DNA of 64,000 nucleotides from an uncultured bacterium (GTDB lineage Bacteria; Omnitrophota; Omnitrophia; Omnitrophales; Aquincolibacteriaceae). Below, one piece after another: positions 36,035-60,548 of the stretch; position 1 is the stretch's first letter; each line of letters starts with the position of its first letter. Both the position numbers and the translations under genes were made by a program. The DNA lies in contig CAYPIR010000007.1 in the NCBI GenBank assembly GCA_964410905.1, positions 11,773 through 75,772 of the forward strand. The letters run 5' to 3'. The notes beneath the pieces are model-generated. The model worked only from the letters and a program-made list of their open reading frames with translations. It made no database searches and was not told the DNA's origin.

Positions 36035-39000
36035 ATGATTAACGCTCAGACAGGAAAATTGAAATCTTGGATTAGAACAATCGCATTTTTTACCGTATTT
36101 ATTTTTACATTTACAAGCGTTGTTTGGGACGGCGGAATAAATAAAGCCTACGCAGCCGCGGCCCAGCCGAGACTTGATTCTCGAGTTTCTACCACAGTTC
36201 TTACTTCCATAATCGACCGCTCTGATCTTCCCGAAACATACGGAACCATAAAAAATTCATATCGCGGAGCAGGCGACCAAGTTTTCATTCACGTTCAAGA
36301 CGCACATATCAACGAAGAGGCACAGCTTAATATCGCTAATATTCTCAAATGGTTTTCTGAAAAACACCAAATGAGGCTTGTTAACATCGAAGGCGCGGAA
36401 GGCGAACTTAACGCTAAGACGCTTACTGCTATTTCTGACAAAGCGGCAAGAAAAGATGTCTCGGGATATTTTTTGCGTGAAGGCAGAATGGCTGGAGCGG
36501 ATTATTTTGCAATCGTTGATAAGCCGGAGCTGACCCTTTACGGAGCGGAAGACAATGAGCTTTATGAAGAAAACCGTAAGGCATATGTCAACGCGCTTGA
36601 ATTTAAAGATAAAGACGAAAAAGTTTTGTCTTCTTTGCGTTCTATTATGGAGAAGGTTGGGAGATTCATTTTTTCTGACGAAGCGCGTGAACTTTATCGC
36701 CGTCGTGTCGACTTTCAAGACGGCGGAGCGCAGCTAGTTGCTTATGTTCGTTACCTTGTTAGCATTGCAGAAAAAAATCAAATGGACTTGTCCGCATACA
36801 GCGGAATGAAATCTCTTCTGCAGCTTGTAGATCTCGAAAAGAAGGTTAATTTTGACAAAGCCGAAAGCGAAGTCGATAGATTAGTTGAACATCTCAAGAA
36901 AACTTTGCAAAGCGACAAACTTTCTCGATTTCTCACCAATACCGTTCATTTCCGAATGAAGAGAATGAATCGTGCTGATTACTATTCATATCTTCAAAGC
37001 GAAATTGACGGACTTATCGATGCCGAGACTGTCAAAACGCAATATTTAAATGCCATCGCCTACATTGAATATATGAAACTTTATGATTTAATCGGCATTG
37101 CAATTTTTGATGAAATTGAATTTTTGGAGAGAACCATAAAAGCAAAAATTCTCACGACTCCCGAAGCCCAAAAATTAGACCAGCTTTATCGAGTTTGGGA
37201 CATTATGCAAAAAATGTTCGACTTTTCGCTTACAAAACAAGATGCCGAATATTTTTACTCCAACCAAACCGCGTTTTCCTCTAACAATTTTGTGGAATTT
37301 CTTACCCCGTTGATGAAGGAACATCGTTTTTCTGATTCTATACCGGCAAACGCTTCGATTTTGGATACCGATTTATCAAAGGTTGAAAAGTTTTATCAAC
37401 TCGCGCTTGAGCGTGATATCGTAATTATTGAACGCGCGATTGAAAAGACAATGAGGAGCGGGCAAAAAGTCTCCGCGATTGTAACCGGTGGATTTCACAC
37501 ACCAGGGATTGAAGCCGCGCTTAAAGAAAAAGGGTTTTCATATTTAGTTGTTACGCCAAGAATTTCCAAGTCGATTGATCAGAAAAAAGAAAGCAAACTT
37601 TATGACGAAGCGCTCCGTCAAACTCCGCTTCCTATAGAAAAAGTTTTGTCTGAAACTCTTACTTTGCAATCGGGGACGGTAAACGATCCACGGTTTCAAC
37701 TTTCAGCGAAGCATTTTCTTGATGTTCCAGAAATGGTTGATCAAGCCGCGACTTTGATGGCGGCTAAATCTATTTTGAATGCTGTGGCGGAGGGTAAGTC
37801 GCCGGCGGCTCGCCTTGAGGAATTGCGTAGAACCGCAGCCGACGCGAACTCGCCCAAATTGATGAAAATTTTAAATTCTTTCGAAGTGGGGACGATTAAC
37901 GGAAAACAAGTTCCTGTGTATCCAAACATAAACGGAACATATTTGGCATTTTTCTCTGAAACAACTAAGCCTTCCGAGGTGTCTCCTAAATATCGTTCTT
38001 CAATTCAAAATCTAAAATTGTCGGACGATAGTTTTCTCTCTATGCGTGTTGTTGCTCCCGAACAAATTTCTGGGATTAGCCGTTCCGAAACGCGCCAGTT
38101 GACTGATGGGACTTCAGCTCTGAAATTGGATGCGTTTGAAGCTGAGGGCATTAAAGTTGAAGCGGGAAAAATTGAACGGGGAGTATTTCAAAAGGAGCTT
38201 ATTGCTAAATCCGGTTATGCGGGCTATGGATTTGTTGTCCCGGATTTGACGCGGGCAAGCGACAAGGCTTTAAGAGATATTTCCGCGGCATTTTCCGATT
38301 CTAAAATAAATGACAAATTGAAAGCGGTGAGTTCTGCTTTTTCAGAAGCAGGCGTAGACCCTATTGCTGTAAGTTCTCAGGCGGTGTTGAGACTTCTTAG
38401 TGAGAATACAGCCGATGAAATTGCTCAAAAGGTCAGCCTTTTGCGTTTATTAAATCGCTCAATAACTACTTCCAATGTTGGTTATTCTGTTGAAAAATTG
38501 CAGGAACTTGCGGCTGAAGCGCAAGCCCAAAAACAAGCAGCCCAAGAAACAGCGGTTGCCGAACTCGCCAAGACTAAAGTTGAAGTGCCAACAGTAGCGG
38601 GTGGCGTTTCTGCTGAAATGATTGAACAGCGCATAAATGCGTTTCTTGGTAAATACAAAACAAGAAATGTAAATGGTAAGGAAATTGAAAACAGCGAAAA
38701 AGTTTTAAATATTATGCGCCTAGCACTTCGTGGAATTTTTGCTGACCCCAAAAACAGTGAAAATAATGCGGCTGCTAATAGTGTTTTTACGCGTTTTGAA
38801 GAACAAATTAAAGTCGCGAGAGATATAACTGAGGAAAGTCTTAATCAAGTTACTATGGGTGCTGGTAAAACAACTATTTTGCAGCTGGGTTTGCAATATC
38901 TCTACGACAAGGGATTTAAACAATCTGAGGGCAAAGGGGTAGTGCTTGTAACTGCTAATGACAAGTTGTCTGAACGCGATGCCGAAAAATCGGCAGCAAT

Positions 39001-42000
39001 GTTTGGCGGACAAGGGATAATTGTCGGTTCTGTTTCAAAAGATGAAAGCGGTAAACCAATTGGCCATATTTACGACTTAAAAACGAAAACTTTTAAGACA
39101 ACAACAGCCGAAGATGTCTATAAGAATACTGACTTTATTTTTGGTTCAATGGAGACATTTCAATTCAGAGCTATAGAAGAAAGAAAAGCGCTTAATGAAA
39201 AAGATAGAATTTTTACTTCGCGCGAGTTTGCCCATCTTCTCGATGAAGCGGACGCTCAATTGGATAATAACAATCCTGCCATTATTTCTGGCGGGATAAA
39301 AGAAGATGCTGAGGAAATAAGGGCAAGAACAATTAAAGCAAATGCTTTTGTCAAAGGAATATTCTTTTCTGGCGTAAATGACGGTTTTGTTGATGTGTCT
39401 GAAGCTAAAAACCAGTCGCGTTCTGTCAAGCTAACCGAAAAAGGCGTGGCTAAGCTGCGGGCGTCCTTCCCAAATCTATCTGAAAGTGAGTTTGATCTTT
39501 TAAAGGAATCCGTCAACACTTCTTTGACCGTATATTTTGCCTATGAAGAAGGAGTGGATTATGTTGTAAAAACGACAACGGCCGCGACCGAAGATGGTAA
39601 AGCATCTAAAAAAGTGGAAATTGTTCTTTTGTCTGAAGGACAAGAACGACCCGGAACACGATTGCAAGGCGGATTGCATTCTGCTATTGAAGCAAAACAC
39701 ATGCAGAGTGAGTCTGATGTTCAATTGGAGCATGATATAGAAGGGTCCATAACTGTGCCGGAGTATCTTTCACTTCCGCATGTAAAGGGTTGGGGAGGCG
39801 TGAGCGGAACTTATGACAAGCCGCAAATGGAAGCGAAATATGGGAAAGTTGTTAAAGAATCAGCATTAAAAAGTAAACGCGGCGAAGAAGGGGCAATATT
39901 TGCTACGGAACAAGAAAAAACGGATGCGTTTTTGGCAGACGCGCTTGCGCGGCATAGAGCCGGGCATCCAATTATCATCAAGGTTGCTGAAGGTAAGACG
40001 GCAGAAACCGCAAAACAAATCAGAGATTATTTCGCTAAAAATGGTGAAAAAGTTGATGAGGAAGCAGTTGGAATATTTGACGCGACATCAAGAACTGATT
40101 TGAAAGAGTTTGAGGCAACAGCAGGAAAAAAAGGCGCTATTTCCGTTGTAACACAGATTGGCGCGCGCGGCGTTGACGTTAAGGTTGAAAATGGCAAAAC
40201 TATAGAGGAAATGCTAGATGAAGCGATTGATAAGGTTCAAGCCGAAATAACCAGGCAAAATCTTGTTTTTACTGGATACGCGCTTTATATCGATGACAAG
40301 GAAGCGTTGGATATTCAGTTCAGAGGCCGCGTTGGACGCGCTAATGACGAAGGTCTTTTTAGAGCGTTTTGGTCAGCGGATGACCCCATTTTTAATAAGT
40401 ATAAGGAATTAGCCGGCGTTCAAGCCGTTTTAGCTGATATTAAAAATGCGTTGCGAAGCGGTAAGACACTGACTTCAGAACAAGCGTTTAAACTGATTTC
40501 TACTCTCCAAACCGCCGTTTCAGATCAAGAAATTTCTTCGTGGAAATCGAATAAATTGTTTGGAGAAGAAAAAAACGCCCGGCTAAAAGAATTCACTGCT
40601 ATTAGAGAAGCTATTTTAAAAGGCGAATTTAATTCTCCAATCGTTCAAAATATTTTCCCTGGTTTGTCTGAATTCGCGGCTAGTCTTAACGACGCGAATA
40701 AAGAAAAACTTAGAATCGGACTATTGAAATTGATGGATAAGGCGTGGAGCAAGTATGAAACCAAATCAGAAGAATCTCGCGTTGCTTTGACAAGAATTTT
40801 GCAAAGCGGCTGGCAAGGCGTTGCGGCGCAAAAAGACGCTGTGGAGAGTTTTCAAAAAGTAATGCGCGGAGTTTATCAGGGAATTGTTCTTGAACTTCAA
40901 AAGCAAATCGCTGGGATATCTGCTGAAAGCAGATCCGAAGCGGAAGAAGTAATCAGACGAATTGATTTTGCTGCTAGATGGAAGTCGTTTGGGAACAAAC
41001 TTCTTGCTTATGTGTATGGCGGAGCCGTGGTTGGTGCTGTCGCTGTAGTTATTGCCAAAGTTATGGCTTTTGTGAGCGTGACAGGAAAAATTGGCGGAGG
41101 AGCGGCCGCGTTGGCAAGTTTAACTGATACGCTTGCTCCCGTAATGAACTTGCTTCCCGGATGGGCTTGGATTGGCATCGCGCTTTTTGCGGCGATGGGG
41201 ACATTTGCTATTGCTCAAACACTGCTTAAGCGGTTTCAGCAGAGTTATCGCGGCACTAAAAACATTGCTCTTTTGCTTAGCGGGCAAGCGGTTTCTGAAG
41301 AACGCGCTTCAGCCGGGCTGTCTGTGCTTGTTCAACCTCTTACAATGATTGTTTCGATAACTCCGATTGGAGTTGTCTTAACAGGCGTAGCCGCTATTGC
41401 CGCGCCCGCCTTAGCGCCCTTGCTTTGGACTATTGCGGCTATTTCCGCGGTTGCGGCACTTGTCGCGGCAGGTTTGATTGTGGCTGTGAATTATTCTAAA
41501 CACATAAAAGATGCCGCAAGACCTACAGATACAGCCATGGGAAGAATTGGTCGCGCGTCCTTTGTCGGATTAGCTTTGATGACCGGACTAGTGACAGTTT
41601 TTAAACCGATAATTTTAACCGGCGCGGCCGCAAGTTTTACAACGATTTTTGGCGCTGTCGCGATACTCGCTGTAATAGCATTTTCTGGTTATTGGGTGAT
41701 GAAAGGTTTTGACTCTGCTTACGGAAAGGAATTTGCGGGGCTTCAACATAATATAAAATTAAATCAGATAGGCGCTGCTGTAGGCGTATCTTTGGCCATC
41801 TTCGCGGGGGCGATAGCGTTTGCTGTTGGTTCTACCGCGATAGCTTTGACTGTTTTGATGTCGCTGGGCTCCATTTTGTTTGCCGCTGTGAGTATTCTTC
41901 AAATTATTGCCGCTCCCGGAATTACTAAAAAAATAGCAGAACAAAAATCTGCGGCCAAAGGCGAACGATTCGGTAAGAGAGATGCTTTCGGAGAACTTTT

Positions 42001-45000
42001 TGAATTTGTGGTGGTTAACGCGCGTTCTATTATTCTTGGATTAGGCGGCATTGTAGGTCTTGTTTTTACTGCTACTAATCTTGCTTTGCCAATAACATTG
42101 GCATACACAGGCTTAGCGGGCGCGGCGGCGACTGTTGTTACCGCTGCTGGCGTAACATTGATATTGGCAGTTGTAATTTCGCTGGTTTTTATGGGAATAG
42201 CCAAATATAGAAACGGTTTGCTTGAAAGAAAAGCAAAAGGCGAAATTTTTACGAATAAAATTGAAAAAGTTTTTTCTACGGACAGCAAAAAAATTGTTGG
42301 AGTCGTTTTAGGATTGGTTGGAATTTCAGCCGCCATGCCATCACTTGCGGCGGGCGCGCAATATGTTCAGCAGTCTGCGACGGCTGAATACACATCTGTT
42401 ACAACAACTTCTGAGTCGGCTTCAGTTACGGAACAATATCTCGAGACTGGGAAAACCTCTTTACCTCAGGGGATTACGGTTTCTGTTGCTGAAAAGACAG
42501 TTGCTCAAAAACCTGTAACGGCATCGCAATTAGAAGATACTGAAAAAAAAGCAGAAACACCGGTTGTTGCCGCTCCTGCTCATGATGTTTCAAAAGATGT
42601 TGTCGCGCCGCCTCCGCCTCGAGAAGATTTTACGATAACTATGGACAAAACTTCGTTTGGACCGGCTGGCATTGCTTGGAAGGTTAGCCGCGATGGAACG
42701 ACTGCGGCAGATAATGAAGAAAATTTGATTGAAGCCGTTCGGAATGCTGAAAAAGATGCCTCTATCGCGAGCGCTCAAGCGGATTTAAATGCATTTATTT
42801 ACAGAGTTGTTCAGGCTTTTGATACTGGAGCGCAAGGAAAATCTGAGGAAGATCAAAAAAGAATAACAAACGCAAAGGCCGAATTTTTAGAAGAAGCCAC
42901 AAATGGATTAGCCCAAGTTAGTGAAAACCCGCTTGATTTGAACGATGTGGTAGCAAATTTAGATGCGCTTTCTCATCGGCTTTTTGATTTGGCAGGATTG
43001 GATAGAGACGACGCGAGAATTCGCCAAAGTATTGCGGAAGACCAAGCTCAAACACGCGCTGAACTAATGGAAGACGCGTTAAGACTTTCTGAGTCTCAAG
43101 CGGAGAAAGACGCAGCGGTTGCTGTTGAAGAGCCTGTTGTGATGACAGAGGCGCTGGCCGCGGCATGGGAGGATTATGAAAAATTCAAAGCGGATACAAT
43201 AGAAAATCTTATTAACACTGAGGATGCCGAACGATTGAATGCATTTAACGATCGCGCTGACGAACTAGAAAAAAATGTTGTAACCGTAGAAGATCTTCAT
43301 CTTGCACAGTTGGAACTTGACCAAATAGCGACCATTTTTGAAGACGCTGGTGGAGATGTTATTGGCGAAGCTGCAAGCGGTGCTGGAGATGGCGCTGGAA
43401 CGCCGCCTCCTCCTCCAACATCTGAATACGGACCGGTCGTGCCGCTTCTTGCTGATATGCTTCCTGTTACTGTTCCACGACCTGCGGCTGAAGGCTCTGC
43501 TGCCGGAACAGCTGGCGCTGCGGCAGGCGCTGCAAGGGTTGTAGCCGATAAGCTTGTCCAAGTTGACGCTAAAAGAGTTGCCAAAGATGTGTCAGTAAGC
43601 GGACCTGTTGCGTTTTCTAAGGAAATTATTAGAAGAACTATCGCGGGCGATCAGCTGCATGAGCCTATGGGACTCTCGGTTGCGACAATCTTGTTTGCCG
43701 AAGACCATCAAGCACCACATGTAATTGCTATGGCTCAAGAGGCGGAAAATTACAAGGATTACTCAGAAGATTATAAATCTTGGGGAACATTTCTAACCGC
43801 TGGCGTTCGTTCGGTTTTGACAAAACATGAAGAAACAAAAACTTACAAAACCCAAACTATCGAAAAAGGCGAAAGGCTTGTTGATATTGATGACGAATAC
43901 GACTTCGGGCTAGGGCTTACAGAATTAGAAACATATAGTTATATGAAGACGAATGTAAGCAGCGTAACTTCTAAGGTCGAAGAACCATTTGTTGCTTCCG
44001 CGTCTGCCGGCATAAAAACAGGCAGCGCTGAGATTAAAGAAGATAAACTTAAAAAACTGCAGGTCGAACAAACGCGGTTGAGCGCGAAGCATGCTTATAT
44101 TGAACAGCAAATGGATAAACTTTTTCATATGGTTGAAATTGTTACCGCTAACCGCTCCCTTGAAACCATACAAGAAAATGAAAAACTTCTTCGTGAGCTA
44201 AAACGAAAGCAAGAAAAATTAAGCGGCATAAGCGCGGAGGTGAAGGCTCGCAGTAAATCTCTTGATGTGGCGCTTGATGGCTTAGAGGTTGCGAAGAATG
44301 ATATTGCAAAAGAGCGCGACAGGCATGCCGCTCATATAGCCTATTTATCAGGCCGCGCGGACATCAGCAATTCCGAAGATTTTATGAAATTTGTTAATGG
44401 TCTGACTTTTAAGAAAATTGAAGAAGATATTTCCGGCAGCCATTTGCCTACAGATATGGCGAGAGTTGTTGTGCAATCGGCACGCAATTATGTTTTGATG
44501 CGCGTTGCTGAACAAGACAAAATAGCAGGGTTAAGTTGGCAATTAACTACGCCGGAAATAGGCGTAAGTTACGGCTCTGAATACGGGTGGAACTTGCGTG
44601 CCAATTTGTTTACATTTGACGCGCAATGGTCATATAGAGATTTTCAAAAAAACAAAGCAAAAATTTTTAAATCCGAAGCGGCTGCGGCAGATGTTTTGAG
44701 CCGCTTGCTTGATGAGGTGGAAAAGGCGCAGCTTGATCGCAGCCGGATTGATGATGTCCGAAAATCAATAGAAGAATTGAAGGCTCAAAAGGATGCTCAG
44801 CAAGCAATAGTTGAGAGCCTTTTTTCTGATCCTACCGGAAAGTCTATTCGGGATGAAGATTCTAATGCGGCACTAGTAAAATTGTTGAAAATACAAAGAC
44901 TTTTAATAGCGGCGGAAGGCGACGCGTATCAAAGAAATGTTGCCGCACAAGAACTTGATACTGTTATCCGCAATGTATCACAAGCCATAAACGAATTGTC

Positions 45001-48000
45001 GGTTAAGTTTCCCAAAGTCGCTAAACAACTAGATGTGAAGGCTAAACTTGAACGACTTCAAGAGGCCGCAAGACAAACAGCGAAAGAACGAAACTTAGAA
45101 CTTGCTCAGACTGCGGATGCTCTTTATAGGAAATATAAGGATTTAGACAACCGTGTTCACATCGATGCGTTTGTCGATGGCTTGCTTGCGGGCAACACTC
45201 GCATTGCCGCGGGACAATTCGCATCGATTGCGCGCCGCGCGGATTATGTCAGGAGTGAATATTTTCGCGTTTTTGGCTACGCGAATGCCGGCGTAAGTGT
45301 TTCATTAAGCGATACAGGCGTAAAAACTAAGACAACAAATATTGGTTTAGGCTTTGATATTCCGATTTTAGATTGGACGCGAAGTTCGGAGGCTATCTCT
45401 AAAGAAGCGGCGCAAAGAGCTAGTGTTTTGACAAAAACAGATGTTGATATGCGTTTGCATTTTCAAACTAATGAGCTTCTCAGAAGAATTGCTAATTTGA
45501 CAGAAGAACGGCAAAGAGTTGAAGAAAAAATTGCGAATGAAGAAAGTAAATCAAAAAAAATTGAAGAAGGAATTGAAATCCGAGCAAAAGAAGTTACGGA
45601 CGGCTCAGACTTGAGCCAGCAATCCAAACTTGCAAGACAAGCCGCGCGTTTGAGCCTTCTTGAAGCGCAGAGAGAGCTTGCCGCTTTGGATGAAAACCGA
45701 AATGCCGCCGTGATGATGCTGCGGCATCTGACTGATACGCATCTTGATTCTGATAATGTCGCCGTGTTGTCTAAAGAAGCGGAATTAAAACTTGATGATT
45801 CTAACTATGTTGAGAGTCTTGGGAAATTTCAAAATCCCGCGTTTGGATTTTTATCACTTGACGGAAAAATCACTCAAGAGGCCGTCCCTACAATTAAAAA
45901 AATGCTTAGTGTTACGCATAGTTTGATGAGCGAAATGACTAAAAAACTTAATGGTTTGAAACGCGCGAATCCAAACTATGAACAAAAATTAAAAGAGCTT
46001 GAGGAGGAACGAAAATCTTTGGATGCTGAAGCGGAGCAGCTCTTAAAAGAAAAGCCTCAGCAAAAAGATTTTGAAAACAAAAAAGACTTTAATAAAGCGG
46101 AAAAAGCATGGGAAGCAAAACGTAGTAGTTATGCGGAAAAATTAGCAAAAAATAATAAAAACAAACTGCCTCTTTCAGCGATTAGAGATTTAGAAAAAAC
46201 TCTTTCTCAATTTCAATCGGCGGAACGTGATTTGAATGAACTCAGCCTATCACCCGACGGCGATCAAACGGATGCTGTCCGCGGCATGCTTATCAATATT
46301 TTAAATGCCTCTGATAGTTATGTTACTTCTGATTATTTATTGCACAAATTCTTCACGCTTGGAGCGTATGATTCTCGCGACGCGTTTTATGAAGAGATTA
46401 GAACTTTGCTTGGAATTATTGCCGATAAAACGGCGGTGCGGGGAATTGTCGGCAGAATAGCAGCCAACGAAGAAGCTTTTGTAAAAATTGAAGAAGCGTG
46501 GAATGTCCTAAAATCGCCGCTTACTATTTCGCTTGGCGCGACATTTCAGGCTACATGGGGCGGGAATAGCGGGACATCTGTTTCCGGTTCGTTCGGAGGA
46601 GTTTTAAGTCATTTATTTTATGCTCCCGCAAGTTATTTGGGGCTCACGAGTGATACTCGAAATCAAATTGCCGGCGAACTTTTGCGCGAGGGTGCCCGCA
46701 ATGTTTTGAAAACTGCGGAAGCTCATCAAAAAGAAGATGTCGCGGTTCGGAATGTCCAAAAGAGGATTGGTGTTTTATCAAGCCGAGTTAAGTTGTATGA
46801 GCGCTTGAGAGATGAATTTACGAAAATGCAAACGGAAGTTGCGCGAAAAAATAAAACTATGGGTTTTGCGAATCTGGTGCGTAAATTATTTTTGAATAAT
46901 AGAGTGAGTGAGGAAAATCTTAATCTTAAAGTTTTAGAATACCAGATTCGTATCGAAAAAGACCAGGCATCTATTGACGCACTTAAAGATGAACTAAGAG
47001 ATACGCTTAACAACACATCTGAAGTTGAGGGAAGCGCCGGTTTTCAAGAAGGCGCGGCAGAATTTGCCGTAACAGAGCAGAGTATTAAAAATCAGTTGGA
47101 AGAGTTGGGCGCTCAAAGCCCTGAACAGCGTCTTGCGACACTTGACAGTATTGTGTCCGCTAACACGGCAAATTTAAGCATTGGGGGCGGCGCGAGATTT
47201 TCTAACGCGATTAGTTCTGCGGGCTCGTCTTTCAACCGAGATTTGGGTGTTTTTTATCAAAAACTTGATGCTGACTCAGGAACGCCGGGCGCTTCCGGCA
47301 ACCGTTATTTTGCAATGAACATTGATGTGTTGTCATTTGCGGGAAATCGCAGTGAAACATTCGCGCTTTTAATGGTGCACGATGAAAGCGAACGAGGAAC
47401 TTTAAGCCGCGAAAAACAAGCGCAAATTCAGGCGCAGGCTCTTGAATTACTTAGAGCGGTTTATCACGCGCGTGTCGCAAATAATGTTTATCGTGAAATT
47501 TCTAAAAGCGCCATTGGTATACATGCGCTTGAAAGAGTTTTAAATTTAAGCCGTGCTGAAAACGCTATGAAAGCAATGGCGGCATCGGCTTTAGGCAATG
47601 TTAGAGAAATTGAGGCCCTCGAGACTGTGAGTTCGCAAATTGCTAGATTAATGGCGGAACTTGGTTTGGCGGATTCTGACAGCGCTTTGAAAAATAAGGA
47701 ATTTTTGAGCCGGCTCAATGGGCTTGTAGCTGCAGCAGGCGATGACATTACAGCGGAAAGCGAAAAACTAACAAAGTTGGCCGCGGAACTTGGCGTTAAT
47801 TTTGATTTAATAGAAGGCTTAGACCTTAGCAAAACTATTTTGGAAGAGAACAAACTTACTCCAGCAACGTATCGCGCCTTGTTGCGTGAAGAAATTGCGC
47901 GGCAATTTGTCAAAACTCTAAAAAACAGCCGTTTTCAATTCACCGCCCGCGGCGGATTTCGCCAGCCGACTCGCGTGTCAGATTTTTCTGCGGCTGAACC

Positions 48001-51000
48001 TCTTGTTGAATTTGGCGTGTCGGCAATTATTCACGATTCTAATGTTGCGGCTGCTGAAAAATTTCATACTAAATGGATAGAAATTGAAAAAATTAAAAGC
48101 GTCCAAGCAAAATTAAAAGATAATAAAACATGGAAAGATATTGCCCGCGACATTAAGTATCTCAGCCAAGAAATTGAACAACGTTTGAAAACTGTTAAGG
48201 ACGCGGAAGAGTTGTATCGCATCGAAGGCGGAATTGGCCGTCAATTCGGCTACGACGACGCGCCTAATGATGTTGTCTTTGTCTATATGAATGAACTTTT
48301 GGCGTATAAGGCCGCAGTGGATTCATATATGTCGGCGGTTCAACGCGCCAACAGTTTCTTAATTGAACAAGGCATAAAAGTTGATGATACTCAAACTTCG
48401 CCGTCTTCCGCTAAAGTTAAAGATATGATTCCAGCTTGGATTAGCGACAAAATATCTTTCTTCGATACGGGCGTCGAGGAGAAATATGAGGCAGGTAATG
48501 GCTTAAATGTTGATTTGTCTACAGCGAAGGTAAGTGCCAACACAGAGTTGATAATTGATACGCGGGTAGATGAATCTGAAAATGCTCGGGTTGAAACGCT
48601 TTATCCAGACATTTCTGGAGCTACCGCGGAGCTTTTGAAGGCTATGGGATTGGCGCCGCTTGATGGAAACGCAAATAGCGAAGAGAAGGCTGACAGAGAA
48701 GACTTGCAAATTATTGCTCAAAATATTTTAGGTCGCGTTGCGGCTAACTATGGCAAAAAAGATGCGAATGCTTGGGTCGCCGAAATCACTGAAACTTATA
48801 ACAAACTTTCTGAAAATAAGTTTTGGGATAAATCGGAATTTGCGTCTCAAAACCACCGCACTTTGGGCGAGGAAGTTTTTGGAAACCTTTTCCGCGCCGC
48901 GTTTTTTGAAACAGGGAGAGTTAATAAACTTTTGCGTAACGCGAATATCGATTTGGATAAACTTGCATTCGCGGCATTTTTGGCAAGCTTAGATGGTGCC
49001 TCTGCTACTCGTCTTTCGCCAGATGAGCGCGCGGCGTTTAGGGACGCAATCCTTCGTGATTTGCCAGCGGCGCGAAAAGCTCTTCAAGAAGACAAAAAGA
49101 ATAAAACGGGAGTTTTTCGTTGGGACGCTGTCCAATTTTCAGAAATATTGTCTTTAGCAATTTTTCACGTGAGTGATACTGAAGCTAAAAAAATGTCTTT
49201 TGAAGATATTCTTAAAAATGATGAATATAGACGCGATATTTTTGAGATTTCTCCGGAAATCAATTTTAACAATGTCTCTAACGCGATTTTGGGTTTTAAT
49301 CGCGGAGATGACTCTCGCACAACAGGTTGGGAAGAATTGGCGGCATTTTTGGCAATCGCGCAAGGGAAATACGATCCCAATACTAAAACGGTGTCTCGTA
49401 AAATACTCGATGTCGCAAATCCTGAAACTATGGCAAATGTTTTGGCGGAGGTGGGGATTGCCAAAGCGAAAGATGACACAACCGCTTATTTGATTGCGCG
49501 CATGAGACATAATTTGGAAAAATTTACAAATCTTGATCCAACTAAAGATGAGCTTGGCGAGACGACTTATAATCGGTTGGTGAAGCTTGTTGAAGATGAG
49601 GCGAATGACTTGCTTGATAAAGCGGGCGTAAGCAAAGATGATATTAAAAGACGACGTGACACGGTCGAGAAAATGCAAATTGAGGCGTTGCGTTTTGCTA
49701 AAGCGGCGGCGTATGTAAACAATATTTTATATGGAACGGGATTTGAAGCGGGGATAGACAGAAACGAATGGCTCGCGAAATCTCTTGATGAACGCGTTTC
49801 GTTGACCGAAAAAAATATGGAAGTATCAAACGGGCTAATTTCAAGAGGCATAAAGAACCATATCGGAATGGATAAATCTTTGACCCCTCGCGAACAAAAA
49901 CAGGCCGAAGCGATTGTGAACGGTCTTATATCCAGCATGGCGTTTGAAATTATGGGCGAGACTGGAAAAGATATTGGAAGAGAAGGTATCAAGAGAATAG
50001 AGGAATTAAAAAAAGAAGCCAAAGAGCTTGAAAAGAAGATCAAAGAAAAGACCCTTTCGTCTAGCGCAACTACGGCAACGTCTTCTGTGTCTACAGCAAC
50101 GGAAGATGGTTCTGTTGAGACCTCAACCTTGCCAACAACATCGGTCACTGAAAGTTCTTCTGATGTTGATGCCTTGATGGCTCGGCTTGAGCAAGTCCGG
50201 GAAAAAATTAGTGATTTTGAAAAAAATCGCGCTAAAGCAAGAGCGGATTATGAGACATTTAGGAACCTTCCTTCCGCAGACCGCGAAACGCGCTTGATAG
50301 AGTTGCAAAAAGAAATGAATGCAATTCAACCGCGTGTGGAAAAAATGCTTGGCCGAAAATTAAATCTTGGCGAAGCCGCGGACATTGCAATCCTTCGAGC
50401 TCAGGCGGAAATGATTTTGGGTGATGTCCAATCTAAATTTATGGAAGGCGGAGCATTTGGTGATGATGAAGAGGCTTGGGATGAATGGCGCGAACTAACC
50501 GTTGAAAAACGCAGACAGATTTTCACAAAAGAACTTGATTCTGCGGCGAAGCTAAAGTCTGAGCTGCAGGGGATAGGCGTTTCTTTTAACCTTTCAGATA
50601 GGGATGAAGCTGGTAATAAAATGCCAGTCGAAGAACGTGGGGAAGATTTGGGTGTTTTGCTTTCTTTAGCAAAATCGGTTTTGTCTGACAAATTATCGAA
50701 TATTGGAACCGTTTTTACAAAAGATGGAGAAATTGTTCAAGGGAAAGAAGGTTTGGCTTGGGCGATTTTGACTGCGACAAGAGATGCTGATGTTCAAAAG
50801 GCAGCTGATGAATTTTTGAATAAAACATATCCGCGGTACAACACCTTAACACCCGTTGAAAAAAGAGGCCGGATTTTCTCTGCCATCGAAGAAACATTGG
50901 CGGATCATGCTACGAGTAAGGAATTAAGCGATTTGGACAGAGAAAAGTCTGAACTTGCGGATTTGATTAAATCTAAATTGCTTGGCAGAGTCGCGTTGTA

Positions 51001-54000
51001 TGAGAAAACTGGTTCTGCAACCGTTTTTGACAGAAAAAGTTTTGATGAGTTGAAAGAGGCTACGACTGTTACCGATTTAACTGAAACAACTTGGAAAAAC
51101 TTACTTTATTCGATTTCTAACTTGCCTAAAAAATCCACAGACACTGTTATTGCTCAAGTTGAGCATTTTGGAAGAGTTGATTTAGCTAAAAACCTGTCTT
51201 TTGGAGATAAGCTAAATCAAAAACCAGATTTCTGGTTAAGCGATAGTGAAAGAACTCGCTTGATTAGAGAATTTAAAACTCTTTCTGATCGAAATAAATC
51301 AAGTGCTGATGTGCTTGCGTGGGCAACCGAACTTTTAAAAATGTCTCTTTTTAATGGTAAAACTGTTGCTGATGTCAATCGATATGCTGAAGAAATGGAA
51401 GAAGTTAGAAACTTTTTGCAAGCGGCGTATAAATTGTATTCCGGGGCAGATTTGCCTTTGGGCGATCTTTCAGCATTTGCAAATGATGTCATAACTGCGG
51501 AAATGGATGTCAGACAGGAACAAGAAAGAAACAATGCGCGTTTAGGGCGGAAATTGACTGAAGCTGAAAAATTGTCCCAGCAACTAGAAGTTTTTGCTGT
51601 TAGATACCGTTATGGACATAAGCTCAAACTTTACGGCTTGGCTGAAGCGGCTTATGAGGGGAGAGAAGTTGCGAGTAATCCATACAAAAATAAAAACGAT
51701 CGAGTTTCTCAAATAATTTATTGGCTAAATTATTTTGGAAAAATCAATCAAGGCGATAAGTGGCAGGAGGTAAATGCTGACTGGGTTCGTCAACATCATA
51801 ATGGTTGGAGCAAACAGCAAATAGTTGGGAAAATTGAGCGGATTTTAGCGGAGCAATATGAAGGAGCTCCGCTTTTTGAACTCACCCCGGAAAGTGCTGT
51901 GAACCAACTTTATCAAGATGTTCAAGATGAGGCGATAATGGATTCAGTTATTTATATAACTCAAAAACATTTTCTCTCTAATGAAAAACTCTCAGCGCTT
52001 GTTTTCGCGGAGCGTGAAGGTAAAGAATCTATACCGCATTTCAAAATCACAAACAACGTTATGACATATGCGTATGACGTTGTCCCATTTTTACATTCGC
52101 TAGAAGACGGTGCGTGGAACGTTTCTGGGGGGTACGCAAACTATTTATTGCTTAAATATGCGACTCAACAAATTTGGGATCCGGATCTCCGTGCATTAGA
52201 AAAACCGGTTCAGGTGAATGGAAAAGATTTGGTTGTGTCTGTTAATGGCATAGATACTCCCGTAAATTTATCAGACTTAAATAATGTCTGGACAAGTTAT
52301 TTGTCTGTTTTTCGATCAGTTAGCATTCTTCAGGAACCAATTAATGAGATGGATTCAAATAAAGTTCTTTCATCGCTTTGGTTTGTTCAACAAATTAAGC
52401 AGCTTGAATCGGATTTGAAAGCTAAAGAAGCGGCAGGTGAAGAAATTGCGGTTGCTGTGAACGAGTTTATGACAGGCGTGAAGCGAGCGGAATCTGTTTT
52501 TTATCAATTTTCAAAAGATGAAGATAAGAAAAAAGATTTCATCAATAATTGGGCTAAAGACTTCTTGGTTGACCGCGAACGCCGCGCGGGGCAAAAATTT
52601 GAGAGGTATGATTTGGTTAAAATTGATGCCGAAATTAAGCACGGAAGAAAAGAGAATGCTAATAAATATGCCGCCGATGCTTTGGAAAAACATAGTCAAG
52701 AAGGTATCCGCAACGCTGCTTTTATTAGGCCTATGGTTGAGATAGTAAAAAAAGAGGCGAAACGCGGCTTTGAATATGAAATTGGAAAAGAGGATGCGAA
52801 AATTATTGCTGAGAAAATGGTTGATGAGGGCTGGGCGGCTCGTGAATTGTTACTTTTAGAGAAGGTTATTGTTCCTGCCCTTACTGAAGGCAGCTCTCTG
52901 ACTATAGAAGTACGCGGAGATATTTATAATGTAGCAGAAATTCTTTTGCAAAAAACAGAATCGGAAGAGCTTTTGAAATTGAGAGGAAGTAATCCGAAGG
53001 CGACAATTGAAAATATTTCGCTTCAAACTCTTAAAGCATCAATTGAAAAGCGTATTGAATTATATAAAAAAGTTATTGATCTTAAAAAGATTATTACGGA
53101 ACAATTTGTAAAATTTCAGGTTTATAGCAATGATGAGAAAATGTTTAAAAATGAAATTGTTAGAATTTCGACTGATGCTATTGAAAGAGGATTTCAAACA
53201 GAATCTCTCAGGCGTTGGTTTGAAACTGCGGAAACGCTTAACATGCTCAATCCTAAAGTTGATATATTGCAGACATTGTTTGTGGCTGACGGGCTTTTGC
53301 AATTAGGCCTTGCGACTCAGCCTCGTGAAAAAATAATTGAAAAGCATACAGATGCTGAAATCGCTGAAAAAATAAATGAAACCTTGGGCTGGATTTTTGC
53401 TGTGAGCGACAATACGCAACCGATGTATTCGTTGGGCGGAAAAAGCAGAACCGATTACGAAAATGAACTTACGCTTGAAAAATATATAAAAAATTATGAT
53501 TCCAAAACCCGCCAACAAATCAAAGAGGATTTGTATGCGCGAGTTACCTCGATGATTAAAAACGGTTCGCTAAGTTTTGCTGATTTGGAAAATCTGAAAA
53601 AATTAACAATTGAAAGAGTGGCGTTTTTAGTGAAAGGTGATACGGAGAGAAAATCAGACACCTTTTCAGCATATGATTTGCCTCAACCGCATCAAGTTGC
53701 GCCGCTTACTATTTTGTCGGTTTTAGATAACAGTGCAGGTGAGCCTTCTAAGCGGATTGGAATTTTAAATATTATTTTTTCTTCGCACAGAGGAGAAGTA
53801 AAAGGGGCGTCTTGGCTAAGATTTAACGACTTTAGAGATCCTTCTCGTCTTTCTGAGCAAGTAGCGGGGCAAACTGGCGCGATGGTTCGTCGTGAATTTG
53901 TTAAACTTGTTGATATTTACGATCCTGTAGATGCAGGGTTTCAATCTTGGTTTGGCAAGAATTTTCAAAAAATAAGCGAAGCTAGCGGATTTAGCAAAAA

Positions 54001-57000
54001 CTCAAAAGGTGAAGAGTCTTTGGCGAAAATTGTTCGTGGCGCGCTTATTGTCGGCACTGCTTTTTCGCTGTATGGTTTATTGGCGACGCTTATTAGGGGA
54101 AGAGTTTTTGCTGCACCTAAGTTATCAGGTTATTCAAAAGCAGAGAATGATAAGTCAAAACGTGGGGGGGCTGGAACTTCTGGTGACGCTGGTGCGAGCG
54201 GTGCCGGCGGTGATGGAGAAGGGAAAAAGCCTGTTTGGAAACAGGACCAGTCTGATAAAAATATTAAATTAATCAAAACTGGCGCGATTTTAGGTGTTGT
54301 CAGAATTTATCTCTTTAAATTTTTGCAATACTCTGCTGTTGCTGGACTTCTGCTTTTGGGGTTGGCAGTTATGCCGGCGACCGTTGGAACTTTTTCAATT
54401 TTATTTCAAATTATGTATTTGCTTATTCATTGGCAATTATTTGAACAAGCGATGTATGCATTTTTGGCATATGCATTTAGTTGGACAAGAGTATTTGCCG
54501 TTGTAGGTGTTTTGGGATCCATTTTTGTTGGAATTAGTTTTGCGCTAGGTTTGCCATGGTTGTCGGCTTTTGGAGCGATTTTAATGGCAAATCCTATTAC
54601 GGTGAGTTTGATACTAGTTTGGGTTGGTTTTTTTGCACTTGTTATGTTCTTAGGCTCTTCTAGGATGCCTTCGTCTGGCGTTCATTGGGCAAGTTTCGAT
54701 AAGTATATTAAAAACGCTCAAGATATAGAGCGGCTCTTTAGACCTGAACTTAATGATGAAAGAACTAAATTGGCGGAAGAAATGAAAGCCCAGATGGATA
54801 AAGTTGGTAAAGCGACTGACGAAACGGATAAAACTGAAGCCCAAAATAAACTAAAGGAACTTATTAGCAAGTTTAAAGAGATTACTCCATCGTTAGATAT
54901 GAATGATTTTCTCGGAGAAAACGAGAGAATTGATGCCGATCAATATGTTACAGACTTCGCACAGTCAAAACCAAATTTATCAGTTGATGAATTAGACGGA
55001 TTAATGTTGGCGCAAATCTTGACTTTAGCTTACAATAATTTTAAGCAAAAAAAATCTATTATATATTTTATGGACGACCTGATTTTGCAATATGTTAAAG
55101 CGGAAAATAGCGTGTCGGCAGAAATTACAGGAGATGAACGAACGCAGGCTGTAAAAGAAAAACTTAGAGAAATAATTAGTGCGGTCGTTAAGGGGGATAA
55201 GGCGTTTAAGAATAAGTCGGAAGAAGATCAAAAAAAGGTAATAGAAGCGCGTTTTAAACAAATTACGTCTTGGGTTGAAAGGATTAAAATTTGGCAAAAA
55301 ATGGCAGATGATGTTTTGACTTATGAAAACGGTGCGGAGAAGATAAATGGCAGCGATCGTCTCATAGTGTCTTTTTCTGGCGCAGGAGGTATGAGAAAAC
55401 CGGTAGGGAATGTTTTAGGGATTAACCAATTTACGGGTTATGGCGAAGATGGAACGCCGGGAAAATATTGGGGACAAATATCTAATGGAGGTGAGTTAGA
55501 TCCTGCAATGCTTGCTTGGCAGCCTTCTCATGATGGAAAACGTTTGCATGTTTATGGCCCAATGTATATTACGGACGTGCTGTTAAAGGCCGCAAAAGGT
55601 CAAACTCTTTCTGGTGTCGAAAAAAGTTTTATTGAAGAAGTTAAACTAGCAAAAGGACTTACTGACGAAGATTTGACGAAAATTGTCCCCGTTACAACAC
55701 ATGATAATGAACCGTTCTTTACAGGGGTTATGAAGGCGGATGGTTTTGTTGCTTATGATAGCTATGTTGCGCACGAAAGACCTGAAAACGATAAGACGGG
55801 ACTTGCGGTATTGCTACCGAAGAAATCAGATTCTGGAGAAATGATACCGCGAGTTATTTATTCGACAACTCTTGACTCAGGAAACTTTGTCAATGTTGGA
55901 ATGGATCTTTTGATGTATAAAGCGATGATCGAAAGACCTGATGCTGGAATGTTTCAAATGAACACTGGATATGTAACAGATAAATCAGACGTTCATTATG
56001 AAGAAAAAATAATATCACATCAATCTGGATTTGGGACGCAAATTTCTAACGGAAAAATTGCTGGGCAAATACGTGCGTTCGGTAAATATTCAATCAGAAC
56101 GGGTTTTGGGCGCGAATTTGGTCGTCCGCGTCCGGGCGTTCCAATGGGTTCGTATTTTTCACGCGTTATGCTTTATAGCGGAATCTTGCCTGAAATTGTA
56201 GAGACTTTCAGTGAAACAGAAACGAATATGAATATGGATGACTACAGAAAAGCCGTTTATGGAAAAATGAACGGCGGAGGCGGCTGGGTTGTTATAGTTA
56301 ACGGAGAAGACGAAATTGTAACCAATACTGCATCTGATATGTATGTTATCGCAAAGGCTATTTCTGATGAAAATGTTCTAAAACGATTGAGAGAAAAGGA
56401 TAATGTCTTGGGGCGAATGTATTTTGGACTAAAAACGCCGGTTATAGATGATGCCGCTGTTGAGCTTTTGGAGCCTGATATTTGGGAAAATCTTGCTAAG
56501 GGCGGAAATCCAATGCCTATGGGCAAGCCAGTTCTTTTAATGTGTAAAGACCGTGCGGGTATTATTGATGATACGGATTTTAATATGATTGCGGAAGACG
56601 GCAAGGCTGCAAAGTGGGGAATTATAAATGATGAAATTACGGATATTTTTAGAAATCGAGGCGGATTTGCCTTGACACCTCAGACGCGATTTTTTAACGA
56701 TCTCCCTAAAATTTCCTTGACCGTTGAAAAAAAATGGATGCAATCACTTTTGTGGTGGGCTGCTATGGGGTGCGTTCCGGGTCTCGGCGGGATTACCGGA
56801 GTTCTTGGTGCGTTGCTCTTGACAGCGATTGTGTTAGGGACGTTGATGTCTGCGCCGTTTATTGGAATTTTGCAATATTATTGGGCAAAGACAGTCAATG
56901 TTGTTAAGGAGCCGGGTAAGGCATTTAAAACGTATATTTTGGAGCCGATAGTTGATATTTTGGGAATGTTTGGAGAAAAATTTGGCAATAGCGGTCCTGA

Positions 57001-59689: not shown

Positions 59690-59725
59690 TTTTAAAGCAG
59701 TATTTTACAACTAGAAAATGCGGAA

Positions 59726-59757
59726 GCGGAGGGCGGAAACGTCCTCCGCTTTTTTTG
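59726..59757 (+). terminator. Rho-independent terminator of the giant gene.
   Basis: GCGGAGG / CCTCCGC 7-bp stem with a 10-nt loop, followed by T7. Confidence 0.75.
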
Positions 59758-59822
59758 TTTTTTAATTCAAGATTTTGTGTATTTTTTCCGTTAATTATGC
59801 AGTCAAAAAGGGAGGAAGTTTT

Positions 59823-60035: not shown

Positions 60036-60065
60036 AAGAACTGATAAGAAAAGCTGGTGGGAAAA

Positions 60066-60374: not shown

Positions 60375-60548
60375 ATCCATACGCGTATAATACAATAAAC
60401 CCTTTTAAATAGGTTGACTTTTATATGAAAAAATTTTAATTTACAACATATAGCAAACTATAACATCGACTCATTTGACAAAACCTTTAATACAAGTTAA
60501 GCTTCTCTTAGATATCGTTGTAGCAGGAAAAGAAAGGAAGGCGAATTT

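What the first reader, a model, noticed from the sequence alone, without database searches (positions are those of the whole stretch)
44550..46950. TolC/outer-membrane-factor-like repeat segments inside the central coiled-coil region (tentative)
Several stretches pair a Gly/Ser/aromatic-rich strand-like segment with long helices whose sequence resembles the OEP family (..SDLSQQSKLARQAARLSLLEAQRELAALDENRNAAV..; ..GVSYGSEYGWNLRANLFTFDAQWSYRDF..; ..TFQATWGGNSGTSVSGSFGGV..). Together with the cytoplasmic ATPase, the inner-membrane domain and ~4,000 aa of helix, this would suit a single polypeptide spanning inner membrane, periplasm and outer membrane. That would be a type-I-secretion-like or surface-fibre architecture encoded in one gene. 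This is my inference from pattern resemblance, not a demonstrated homology.
Basis: inference. Interest (0 to 1): 0.7.

Follow-up and report, generated by a model that had tools for sequence, protein, structure and literature searches.

The report
TolC-like repeat inside giant Omnitrophota protein
A 7,884-residue membrane protein of an uncultured Omnitrophota bacterium carries, in its long helical middle part, at least one genuine repeat of the TolC-type outer-membrane channel family; related giant proteins carry such repeats too, which suggests how these proteins reach or anchor in the outer membrane.

Summary
The quoted segments are real. They lie in one ORF (36035-59689, 7,884 aa) between two clusters of transmembrane helices.

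**What is supported**
- One segment is a statistically supported OEP (TolC-family) repeat. Scanned alone, aa 3040-3245 hits Pfam PF02321 at E=1.7e-6 and 28.4 bits (cut-off 22), covering aa 3069-3217.
- Reversed and shuffled copies give no hit.
- About 45 other windows of this protein and its orthologues, scanned alone, gave one further OEP hit, at E=0.054.
- The hit disappears when the repeat is scanned inside 450 aa or more of coiled coil.
- I found orthologues in Omnitrophota genomes. Two of them hit OEP at the same position.
- Four paralogous giant ORFs carry OEP repeats at E from 5.8e-13 to 4.5e-5.

**What is not established**
- Five further helix-hairpin-helix units (aa 2585-4112) are conserved and have TolC-like dimensions. 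Their similarity to OEP is only sub-threshold.
- They show no detectable similarity to each other.
- Structure prediction failed, so a barrel is not shown.

**Verdict**
The envelope-spanning, single-polypeptide reading remains inference. I found no report of this feature in the two giant-protein surveys or in full-text searches, so I class it as a new variant of a known kind.

The parts
36035..59689 (+). Giant ORF, 7,884 aa, that holds everything below
   Evidence: A public Logan contig from run SRR11845624 carries the same upstream amidase gene and the first 980 codons.
36212..37759 (+). N-terminal domain (aa 60-575), preceded by a signal-peptide-like hydrophobic segment (aa 13-31). It is shared with many large Omnitrophota proteins.
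   Evidence: 58 protein hits match only aa 1-~650. 79 loci in Omnitrophota MAGs carry it. It matches no Pfam family.
38489..40405 (+). Divergent SecA-like ATPase (aa 819-1457): DEAD motor, preprotein-binding domain and second P-loop domain
   Evidence: Pfam SecA_DEAD E=9.4e-12, SecA_PP_bind E=3.2e-8, P-loop_SecA E=1.3e-8. About 25% identity to genuine SecA.
40997..42334 (+). First cluster of transmembrane helices (aa ~1655-2100, roughly 10-12 helices)
   Evidence: Kyte-Doolittle scan. Conserved in L013, L014, L030 and L031.
43787..44377 (+). Unit U0 (aa 2585-2781): hairpin H0, a ~67-aa helix and a ~42-aa return helix ending in YLSG
   Evidence: Helix lengths read by eye. hhalign of the orthologue profile against my OMF profile gives P=0.0017, in register. 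The L030 orthologue hits Pfam OEP at E=0.054. The window sequence gives no Pfam hit.
44402..44974 (+).
   Evidence: Second-best whole-profile placement in the protein with the enlarged OEP profile: +3.3 bits, above all 100 shuffle maxima. No Pfam OEP hit in the window or in three orthologues.
45155..45751 (+). Unit U2 (aa 3041-3239): the supported OEP repeat. The Pfam match covers aa 3069-3217 (nt 45239-45685). Hairpin H2 carries the motif GLGFDIPILDW.
   Evidence: Pfam PF02321: E=1.7e-6, 28.4 bits against a cut-off of 22, profile positions 26-184 of 187. Controls are negative. Orthologues L080 and L030 hit at E=4.9e-4 and 7.7e-3. It is the best whole-profile placement in the protein. AlphaFold predicts a 69-aa helix plus a 54-aa return helix at pLDDT 70-90.
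45752..46399 (+). Helical insert of about 215 aa between U2 and U3, with no hairpin
   Evidence: Read. No OEP signal. It behaves as a decoy (P=0.34-0.62).
46400..47026 (+).
   Evidence: hhalign P=0.003, 0.0023 and 0.0081. The last alignment covers 148 columns of the whole first OMF repeat, in register. 0 of 200 position-matched shuffles reach the native score. No Pfam hit.
47090..47734 (+). Unit U4 (aa 3686-3900), with hairpin H4
   Evidence: Fourth-best whole-profile placement at -3.0 bits, about the 90th percentile of the null. Conserved in L080. No Pfam hit.
47762..48370 (+). Unit U5 (aa 3910-4112): hairpin H5, a ~60-aa helix, a turn, and a ~35-aa return helix
   Evidence: Architecture read by eye. 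Weak hhalign match, P=0.057, in register with the second OMF repeat. Conserved in L080. No Pfam hit.
54032..54664 (+). Second cluster of transmembrane helices (aa ~6000-6210). It closes the ~3,900-aa segment that holds the units.
56789..58024 (+). Third cluster of transmembrane helices (aa ~6919-7330)

Best explanation
The middle of this giant Omnitrophota protein contains a divergent module of the TolC / outer-membrane-factor type.

**Shown**
- Residues ~3069-3217 are a member of the OEP repeat family.
- Orthologues and paralogous giant proteins carry OEP repeats at the same relative position, about 2,100-3,900 residues from the start.

**Inferred from architecture**
- This repeat is one of about six helix / amphipathic beta-hairpin / ~65-75-residue helix / ~35-55-residue return-helix units. 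They span aa ~2585-4112 and lie between two inner-membrane helix clusters.

**Inferred from what OEP repeats do in TolC, OprM and CusC**
- The hairpins insert into the cell's own outer membrane as a small beta-barrel.
- The long helices form a periplasm-spanning helical tube or stalk.
- The module thus ties the inner-membrane-anchored part (SecA-like ATPase plus polytopic membrane domain) covalently to the outer membrane. It would act as an anchor, and possibly as an exit duct, for this surface or secretion machine.

It is open whether three giant chains each contribute repeats, as in TolC, or one chain supplies all six hairpins.
For: **The OEP hit on U2**
- Pfam OEP above the curated cut-off for aa 3040-3245 scanned alone: E=1.7e-6, 28.4 bits, nearly the full profile.
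- The reversed sequence and 8 shuffled copies give no OEP hit.
- About 45 other windows of this protein and its orthologues, scanned alone, gave one further OEP hit: L030 U0 at E=0.054.
- Orthologous U2 of L080 and L030 also have OEP as their top Pfam hit.
- An independent home-made OEP profile, aligned over its whole length, puts its best placement in the entire protein at 3041-3239 (+5.5 bits). Shuffle maxima average -18.5 with sd 5.1. The best of 102,000 residues of other Omnitrophota proteins scores -5.3.

**The other units**
- An enlarged profile that excludes U2 puts its top four placements in the protein exactly on U2, U1, U3 and U4.
- In-register profile-profile alignments match U2 to the second OMF repeat and U3 to the first.
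- All six hairpins are conserved in L080.

**Relatives**
- OEP repeats occur inside other giant ORFs that share the N-terminal domain: L073 E=5.8e-13, L024 E=3.7e-6 and 4.9e-4, L016 E=4.5e-6, L020 E=4.5e-5, L014 E=6.4e-3. The separate protein P0009 hits at E=1.1e-3.

**Structure and topology**
- AlphaFold on U2 alone predicts a confident 69-residue helix plus return helix. From my own knowledge, the long helices of TolC are about 67 residues.
- The module sits between transmembrane clusters, so both of its ends can be periplasmic, as in TolC.
- Ordinary OMF genes exist in Omnitrophota.
Against: - Only one of the six units passes Pfam. The other five give no Pfam hit in the window.
- The units are not detectably similar to each other.
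- hhalign probabilities are low, 5-11%.
- Profile searches of the PDB find no OMF. They do find a spurious 24-bit coiled-coil hit to AmfC on the long helix of U2. This shows that helical segments of this kind can score by chance.
- In full-length context, HMMER reports no OEP hit at all.
- No usable 3-D model was obtained. Single-sequence AlphaFold gave pLDDT 38 and 59, with low-confidence strands, and Foldseek found only generic helical hairpins.
- No beta-barrel, oligomeric state or outer-membrane location is shown.
- The signal-peptide-like N-terminus ahead of an ATPase leaves the overall topology unresolved.
Confidence: 0.6

Rival explanations
1. The units derive from OEP repeats but have been repurposed. 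They do not build a channel in the cell's own outer membrane. Instead they serve either as a rigid periplasmic or extracellular spacer, or as hairpins that insert into the membrane of a prey or host cell, giving a pore-forming or attachment role in a predatory lifestyle.
For: - Omnitrophota giant proteins have been linked to predation and to attachment to or degradation of cell surfaces (paper 10.1101/2023.11.21.568195).
- Most units have diverged beyond recognition as OEP.
- The array has more than the canonical two repeats, plus a 215-aa insert.
- Weak Pfam hits to the Bacillus HBL pore-forming toxin family fall at aa ~3589-3660, E=0.02-0.07 and below the cut-off.
Against: - The segment lies between two inner-membrane helix clusters. 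It is therefore tethered at both ends and poorly placed to reach another cell.
- The best-conserved motif is the family's hallmark strand-to-helix junction (GFDIP.L; the LPiFdgg consensus). In known OMFs, from my own knowledge, this junction sits at the barrel-helix transition.
- The HBL hits are far below threshold.
Confidence: 0.2
2. There is no real relationship to TolC. The region is a long coiled-coil stalk with occasional Gly/Ser-rich breaks, and the OEP hit is a chance or convergent match driven by helical heptad patterns.
For: - No OEP hit in full-length context.
- A spurious 24-bit AmfC hit on the same helix.
- Five of six units are not detected by Pfam.
- Local HMMER scores with my own profile were at noise level compared with other Omnitrophota proteins.
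- Low hhalign probabilities.
Against: - The Pfam match spans the pre-helix, the hairpin and both helices, and exceeds the curated cut-off.
- Nine composition-matched controls give nothing.
- The part of the match common to three orthologues (profile positions ~26-109) is centred on the hairpin, not on the coiled coil.
- An unambiguous OEP repeat (49.5 bits, E=5.8e-13) sits at the equivalent place in a paralogous giant ORF, and four more giant ORFs hit at E<1e-3.
Confidence: 0.12

Closest known systems
Outer membrane factor family (TolC, OprM, CusC; Pfam OEP PF02321; by my recollection TCDB 1.B.17)
   Same: - One repeat matches the OEP profile above the curated threshold over nearly its whole length.
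- The unit order is helix, two amphipathic strands, a ~69-residue helix, a tight turn at a Gly, and a return helix.
- The hallmark strand-to-helix junction is present: GFDIPILDW against the family consensus LPiFdgG.
- Both ends of the module can be periplasmic.
   Different: - It is not a stand-alone ~450-500-residue lipoprotein or secreted protein. It is embedded at residue ~3,000 of a 7,884-residue protein, between inner-membrane helix clusters.
- It has about six units instead of two, and five of them have diverged beyond Pfam detection.
- A 215-residue insert separates U2 from U3.
- Trimer formation and a barrel are unproven.
Omnitrophota giant proteins with divergent SecA_DEAD domains (West-Roberts et al. 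2023, bioRxiv 10.1101/2023.11.21.568195; the 20-protein PF07517 cluster in bioRxiv 10.64898/2026.06.07.730766)
   Same: - Omnitrophota origin.
- Many transmembrane helices.
- SecA DEAD and preprotein-binding domains, with no Pfam match to the rest of SecA.
- Large unannotated regions.
   Different: - At 7,884 aa it is well below the >30,000 aa class those authors emphasise.
- Neither paper mentions TolC or OEP. The 2023 text has 0 occurrences of 'TolC'. The 2026 text has 0 of 'TolC' and 0 of 'outer membrane', and treats its two beta-type topology calls as artefacts.
Tripartite envelope-spanning systems (type I secretion HlyBD-TolC; efflux pumps such as AcrAB-TolC and MacAB-TolC)
   Same: The order of parts matches: a cytoplasmic ATPase, an inner-membrane domain, long periplasmic helices, and an OMF-type element.
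   Different: - Here all parts are on one polypeptide rather than three proteins.
- The ATPase is SecA-like, not an ABC type.
- No adaptor (HlyD/MFP) domain was detected.
- No cargo is known.

Membership tests
OMF / TolC family (Pfam OEP, PF02321) | Sequence match to the OEP repeat profile above the curated gathering score | tested here: met
   Scanned alone, aa 3040-3245 scores 28.4 bits against a cut-off of 22, at E=1.7e-6 and profile positions 26-184 of 187. The result was reproduced with negative shuffle controls. It is not reported when the same residues are scanned inside 450-3,800-aa pieces.
OMF / TolC family (Pfam OEP, PF02321) | Two adjacent OEP repeats forming one ~430-500-residue protomer | tested here: inconclusive
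   Only U2 passes. Neighbours U1 and U3 give no Pfam hit. They do give the 2nd and 3rd best whole-profile placements in the protein. U3 also aligns in register with the first OMF repeat over 148 columns, at E=0.008 and 5% probability. A whole-protomer profile alignment did not exceed natural decoys.
OMF / TolC family (Pfam OEP, PF02321) | Stand-alone exported outer-membrane protein with its own signal peptide or lipobox | tested here: not met
   The repeat lies at residue ~3,000 of a 7,884-aa ORF, between transmembrane clusters at aa ~1655-2100 and ~6000-6210.
OMF / TolC family (Pfam OEP, PF02321) | Strand-strand hairpin followed by a ~67-residue helix and a return helix (the alpha/beta-barrel protomer fold) | tested here: inconclusive
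   Single-sequence AlphaFold of aa 3036-3245 gives helices at 3118-3186 (69 aa) and 3191-3244 with pLDDT ~70-90. The strands score only pLDDT ~30. Foldseek returns only generic helical hairpins, with the best E-value at 0.027. The 531-aa model of aa 3600-4130 was unusable at pLDDT 38.
OMF / TolC family (Pfam OEP, PF02321) | Homotrimer forming a 12-stranded barrel in the outer membrane | not testable with these tools
   No multimer prediction is available.
OMF / TolC family (Pfam OEP, PF02321) | Genetic or functional partnership with a periplasmic adaptor and an inner-membrane transporter | not tested
   No HlyD/MFP, ABC or RND domain was found within the giant protein. The other ORFs of the window were read but not scanned for such domains.
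Omnitrophota giant SecA_DEAD proteins (West-Roberts 2023) | Omnitrophota origin, many transmembrane helices, and divergent SecA DEAD plus preprotein-binding domains | tested here: met
   Pfam hits. Transmembrane clusters. All close relatives are Candidatus Omnitrophota MAGs. The length of 7,884 aa is below the authors' >30,000-aa focus.
ClyA / Hbl alpha-pore-forming toxins | Match to the family profile (PF05791 Bacillus_HBL) | tested here: not met
   Only E=0.024-0.07 and 13-15 bits against a cut-off of 29.1, on helix aa ~3589-3660.

The most novel reading that the evidence does not exclude
The six helix-hairpin-helix units (aa ~2585-4112) form a complete 'single-chain TolC'. Three tandem pseudo-protomers in one polypeptide would supply all 12 strands of an outer-membrane barrel and its periplasmic helical tunnel. 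This channel would be covalently joined to a SecA-like ATPase and a polytopic inner-membrane domain, making a whole trans-envelope export or anchoring machine encoded in one gene. It would be a general feature of a large family of Omnitrophota giant proteins.

The evidence does not exclude this reading, and some points fit it:
- The unit count is six.
- All six hairpins are conserved in L080.
- In L024, two Pfam-supported repeats start 1,027 aa apart, which equals 5 x 205 aa.
- U2 resembles the second repeat of OMFs and U3 the first.
Probability: 0.2. Interest if true: 0.9.

Novelty: new variant of a known kind. Interest (0 to 1): 0.72.

Why it matters
How giant, multi-pass membrane proteins of Omnitrophota get their huge non-cytoplasmic regions across and onto the cell envelope is an open question. 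The paper that described them raises it.

An embedded TolC-type module gives a concrete, testable answer. The protein may carry its own outer-membrane anchor or duct, linked in one chain to a SecA-like motor and an inner-membrane domain.

It would also be an unusual context for the OEP fold, which is otherwise known from stand-alone trimeric channel proteins. Here it would sit in tandem arrays of more than two repeats.

There is a practical lesson too. Domain surveys run on whole giant sequences miss such modules, because HMMER drops them in a coiled-coil context. Published domain catalogues of giant proteins are therefore probably incomplete.

Tried and rejected
**Searches that found nothing**
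1. Pfam on whole halves and on 450-1,700-aa pieces: no OEP hit. This turned out to be a masking effect, not true absence.
2. Word-index protein search, full phmmer against 1.84 billion representatives, PDB phmmer, and first scans of genome and metagenome contigs, all with the region itself: no homologues. The protein collections appear to lack giant proteins; the longest hit was 2,802 aa.
3. Second metagenome scan, using the orthologue alignment: nothing.
4. NCBIfam: no TolC-type model hit.
5. Profile searches of the PDB with the whole region and with the U2, U0 and U3 family alignments: no OMF, only spurious helical hits.

**Tests for internal repeats**
6. Self-BLAST, phmmer of each unit against the protein, and profile-profile comparison between units: no internal repeat signal.
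7. MAFFT alignment of the six hairpin windows: meaningless.

**Comparisons with OMF profiles**
8. Single-sequence hhalign against TolC and OprM: not significant.
9. Local hmmsearch with home-made OMF profiles: scores near 0 bits, no better than other Omnitrophota proteins. I rejected this as evidence.
10. Whole-protomer profile alignment: not above natural decoys.

**Structure**
11. AlphaFold without an alignment on aa 3600-4130: pLDDT 38, unusable.
12. AlphaFold on aa 3036-3245: only the helical hairpin is confident. Foldseek against the PDB was uninformative.

**Alternative families considered and rejected**
13. ClyA/Hbl-type toxin: hits are below threshold.
14. Trimeric autotransporter anchor: that anchor is C-terminal with four strands, which does not fit this layout.

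**Domains elsewhere**
15. The rest of the giant protein scanned in pieces: no further domains.

Full report
**What is there.** The finding lies inside one ORF, 36035-59689 (+), of 7,884 aa. All three quoted strings are present in frame, at aa 2843-2870, 3191-3226 and 3503-3523.

The domain order of the protein is:
- a signal-peptide-like hydrophobic N-terminus (aa 13-31);
- an N-terminal domain (aa ~60-575) shared with many large Omnitrophota proteins;
- a divergent SecA-like ATPase at aa 819-1457 (Pfam SecA_DEAD E=9.4e-12, SecA_PP_bind E=3.2e-8, P-loop_SecA E=1.3e-8);
- a cluster of about 10-12 hydrophobic helices (aa ~1655-2100);
- about 3,900 residues of mostly helical sequence;
- a second helix cluster (aa ~6000-6210);
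- a ~700-aa soluble region;
- a third helix cluster (aa ~6919-7330);
- a C-terminal region.

The neighbouring genes are ordinary bacterial housekeeping genes, as read. All relatives are Candidatus Omnitrophota MAGs. A public Logan contig (SRR11845624) holds the upstream amidase gene and the first 980 codons, so the 5' part of the gene and its junction with the upstream gene are independently assembled.

**The observation.** I count six low-charge, Gly/Ser/aromatic segments, H0 to H5, between aa ~2625 and 4001. Each has alternating hydrophobic and small residues and is flanked by long helix-type sequence.

Read by eye, several inter-hairpin stretches break up in the way TolC does. For example, H0 is followed by:
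- a 67-residue helix;
- a ~42-residue return helix ending in YLSG;
- a ~34-residue non-helical stretch;
- a ~34-residue helix leading into H1.

That reading is inference from the sequence, not a tool result.

**First tests were negative.**
- Pfam on halves of the protein and on 450-1,700-aa pieces gave no OEP hit, even at E≤10.
- The region had no homologues in the word-indexed protein search, in a full phmmer scan of 1.84 billion representatives, in the PDB, or in first scans of genome and metagenome contigs.
- Self-comparison showed no internal repeats.
- AlphaFold without an alignment on aa 3600-4130 was unusable at pLDDT 38.
- Local HMMER scores against OMF profiles that I built from TolC, OprM and nine plasmid-borne OMFs were about 0 bits. 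That is no better than other Omnitrophota proteins, so I do not count them as evidence.

**The turning point.** I wrote an alignment that forces the whole OEP-repeat profile to be matched.
- Its best placement in the entire protein was aa 3041-3239, at +5.5 bits.
- Maxima of 100 local shuffles averaged -18.5 (sd 5.1, highest -3.2).
- The best of 102,000 residues of other Omnitrophota proteins scored -5.3.

Scanning that unit alone against Pfam then gave PF02321 (OEP) at E=1.7e-6 and 28.4 bits, above the curated cut-off of 22. The match covers aa 3069-3217 against profile positions 26-184 of 187. The reversed sequence and eight shuffled versions gave no OEP hit, while the native sequence reproduced the result.

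The hit is therefore hidden when the repeat sits in a long coiled-coil context. I presume HMMER's bias and speed filters are responsible. That would explain the earlier negatives. It may also explain why domain surveys of whole giant proteins have not reported it.

**Orthologues and paralogues.** A scan of species-representative genomes with an alignment of the N-terminal domain returned 79 Omnitrophota loci. About 35 of them have ORFs of ≥3,900 aa that run off the fetched flank. In this small database, phmmer found true homologues of the hairpin region:

| Locus | Giant residues covered | Identity |
|---|---|---|
| L080 | 2534-4359 | 32% |
| L030 | to aa 3708 | 30% |
| L015 | to aa 3194 | 28% |

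- All six hairpins are conserved in L080. The U2 motif reads G(V/L)GFDIP(I/L)L in three of the four sequences.
- Orthologous U2 hits OEP as its top Pfam family in L080 (E=4.9e-4) and L030 (E=7.7e-3). U0 of L030 gives OEP at E=0.054.

Other giant ORFs that share only the N-terminal domain also carry OEP repeats at a similar distance from the start:

| Locus | Residues | E-value | Bits |
|---|---|---|---|
| L073 | 3356-3548 | 5.8e-13 | 49.5 (full profile) |
| L024 | 2349-2533 | 3.7e-6 | 27.3 |
| L024 | 3376-3579 | 4.9e-4 | 20.4 |
| L016 | 2726-2925 | 4.5e-6 | 27.0 |
| L020 | 2187-2366 | 4.5e-5 | 23.8 |
| L014 | 2827-3055 | 6.4e-3 | 16.8 |

The 2,781-aa protein P0009 has an OMF-like stretch at E=1.1e-3. 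OEP repeats are thus a recurring feature of this family of giant proteins, not an accident of one sequence.

**The other five units.** None gives a Pfam OEP hit in the window, at several window sizes. U1 orthologues give none either. The units are not similar to each other, even as small profiles. There is nonetheless consistent sub-threshold signal.
- Position-matched local shuffles reach the native fit to the OEP profile in these numbers out of 200: H3 0, H0 2-4, H1 8-9, H5 13-16, H4 23-27.
- With an enlarged profile that contains no U2 sequence, the four best placements in the whole protein are U2 (+9.0), U1 (+3.3), U3 (-2.6) and U4 (-3.0). Shuffle maxima averaged -9.4, with a 99th percentile of +1.0. 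The next placements are the U2-U3 insert (-7.3) and two stretches outside the array (-11.5, -11.7). U0 ranks twelfth (-19.4), and U5 is not among the top 14.
- hhalign of orthologue profiles against my OMF profile gives P=0.0017 (U0), 5e-4 (U2), 0.0023 (U3), 0.057 (U5), 0.1 (U4) and 0.36 (U1). Two decoy windows score 0.3-0.6.
- The tool's own hhalign aligns U2 with the second OMF repeat (E=0.0029). It aligns U3 with the entire first repeat over 148 columns (E=0.0081). Probabilities are only 11% and 5%.

I read this as follows. U2 is established. U3, U1 and U0 are probable divergent repeats. U4 and U5 rest on architecture and conservation alone.

**Structure.** Single-sequence AlphaFold of aa 3036-3245 gave a confident helical hairpin: a 69-residue helix at 3118-3186, a four-residue turn, and a 54-residue return helix, at pLDDT ~70-90. 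The strands were of low confidence. Foldseek found only generic helical hairpins.

The helix length agrees with the ~67-residue long helices of TolC (my own knowledge), but no barrel has been shown. This is the main gap in the analysis.

**Mechanism.**
- Shown: membership of one repeat in the OEP family, its conservation, and its recurrence in relatives.
- Inferred from the known role of OEP repeats in TolC, OprM and CusC: the hairpins insert into the cell's own outer membrane, and the long helices span the periplasm.

The module lies between two inner-membrane helix clusters, so it can start and end in the periplasm as TolC does. The protein would then be stapled to both membranes, with a SecA-like motor on the same chain. 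It is open whether the module is only an anchor or also a duct, and whether three chains or one chain form the barrel.

**Rivals.**
- A repurposed OEP-derived spacer or prey-membrane-inserting element, about 0.2.
- A chance coiled-coil match, about 0.12. A spurious 24-bit AmfC hit on the same helix shows this risk is real. The hairpin-centred matches in three orthologues and the 49.5-bit repeat in L073 argue against it.

**Comparison with what is known.** The protein fits the described class of Omnitrophota giant proteins with divergent SecA domains, though it is much shorter than the >30,000-aa examples.
- That paper never mentions TolC.
- A 2026 survey does not mention TolC or the outer membrane. 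It dismissed two beta-type topology calls, described as short strands scattered between long periplasmic regions, as artefacts. That pattern is what embedded OEP hairpins would produce.
- Full-text searches found no paper linking these proteins to TolC or OEP.

The protein is not a member of the OMF family in the usual sense. It fails the stand-alone, two-repeat architecture test. It does contain a member of the OEP repeat family.

I rate it a new variant of a known kind, with interest 0.72.

Noticed in passing
window 1-6102 (+): The C-terminal 2,033 aa of a second very large ORF that runs off the window start. Pfam finds three methyltransferase-type stretches, a weak GT2 match, and a calcineurin-like phosphoesterase at E=3.7e-9. 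It resembles the enzyme-rich class of Omnitrophota giant proteins described in 2023.
   Followed up: partly
window 45152-45769 compared with longer pieces containing it: The same residues hit Pfam OEP at 28.4 bits when scanned alone. They give no hit at E≤10 inside 450-3,800-aa pieces. Whole-sequence domain surveys of coiled-coil-rich giant proteins will therefore miss embedded domains.
   Followed up: yes
window 36071-40405 (giant aa 13-1457): A signal-peptide-like segment (positive residues, a hydrophobic core, then AYAAAA) precedes the conserved N-terminal domain and the SecA-like ATPase. If that segment is exported, the ATPase would lie outside the cytoplasm. The topology is unresolved.
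   Followed up: no
L085 3-1412; L072 2-1738; L086 139-1947: Ordinary stand-alone OMF (TolC-family) genes lie 8-10 kb upstream of the giant gene in three Omnitrophota loci. Each has two strong OEP-repeat placements of 19-56 bits. Whether they are functionally linked to the giant genes was not examined.
   Followed up: no
L024 giant ORF aa 2349-3579; L016 giant ORF aa 2275-3898: In L024, two Pfam-supported OEP repeats start 1,027 aa apart, which equals 5 x 205 aa. L016 shows about five OEP-like placements in a row. Both fit arrays of more than two repeats per chain.
   Followed up: partly
L011 8061-16406 (protein P0009, GCA_974446295.1): A complete 2,781-aa Omnitrophota protein has the same N-terminal domain (48% identity). 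It carries an OMF-like two-repeat stretch at aa ~2060-2480 (Pfam OEP E=1.1e-3, below the cut-off). It has no detectable similarity to the SecA-like part of the window protein.
   Followed up: partly
window 59690-64000: No ORF of ≥150 aa on the + strand, and no Rfam family at gathering score, in the 4.3 kb downstream of the giant gene. The content of this stretch is unexplained.
   Followed up: partly
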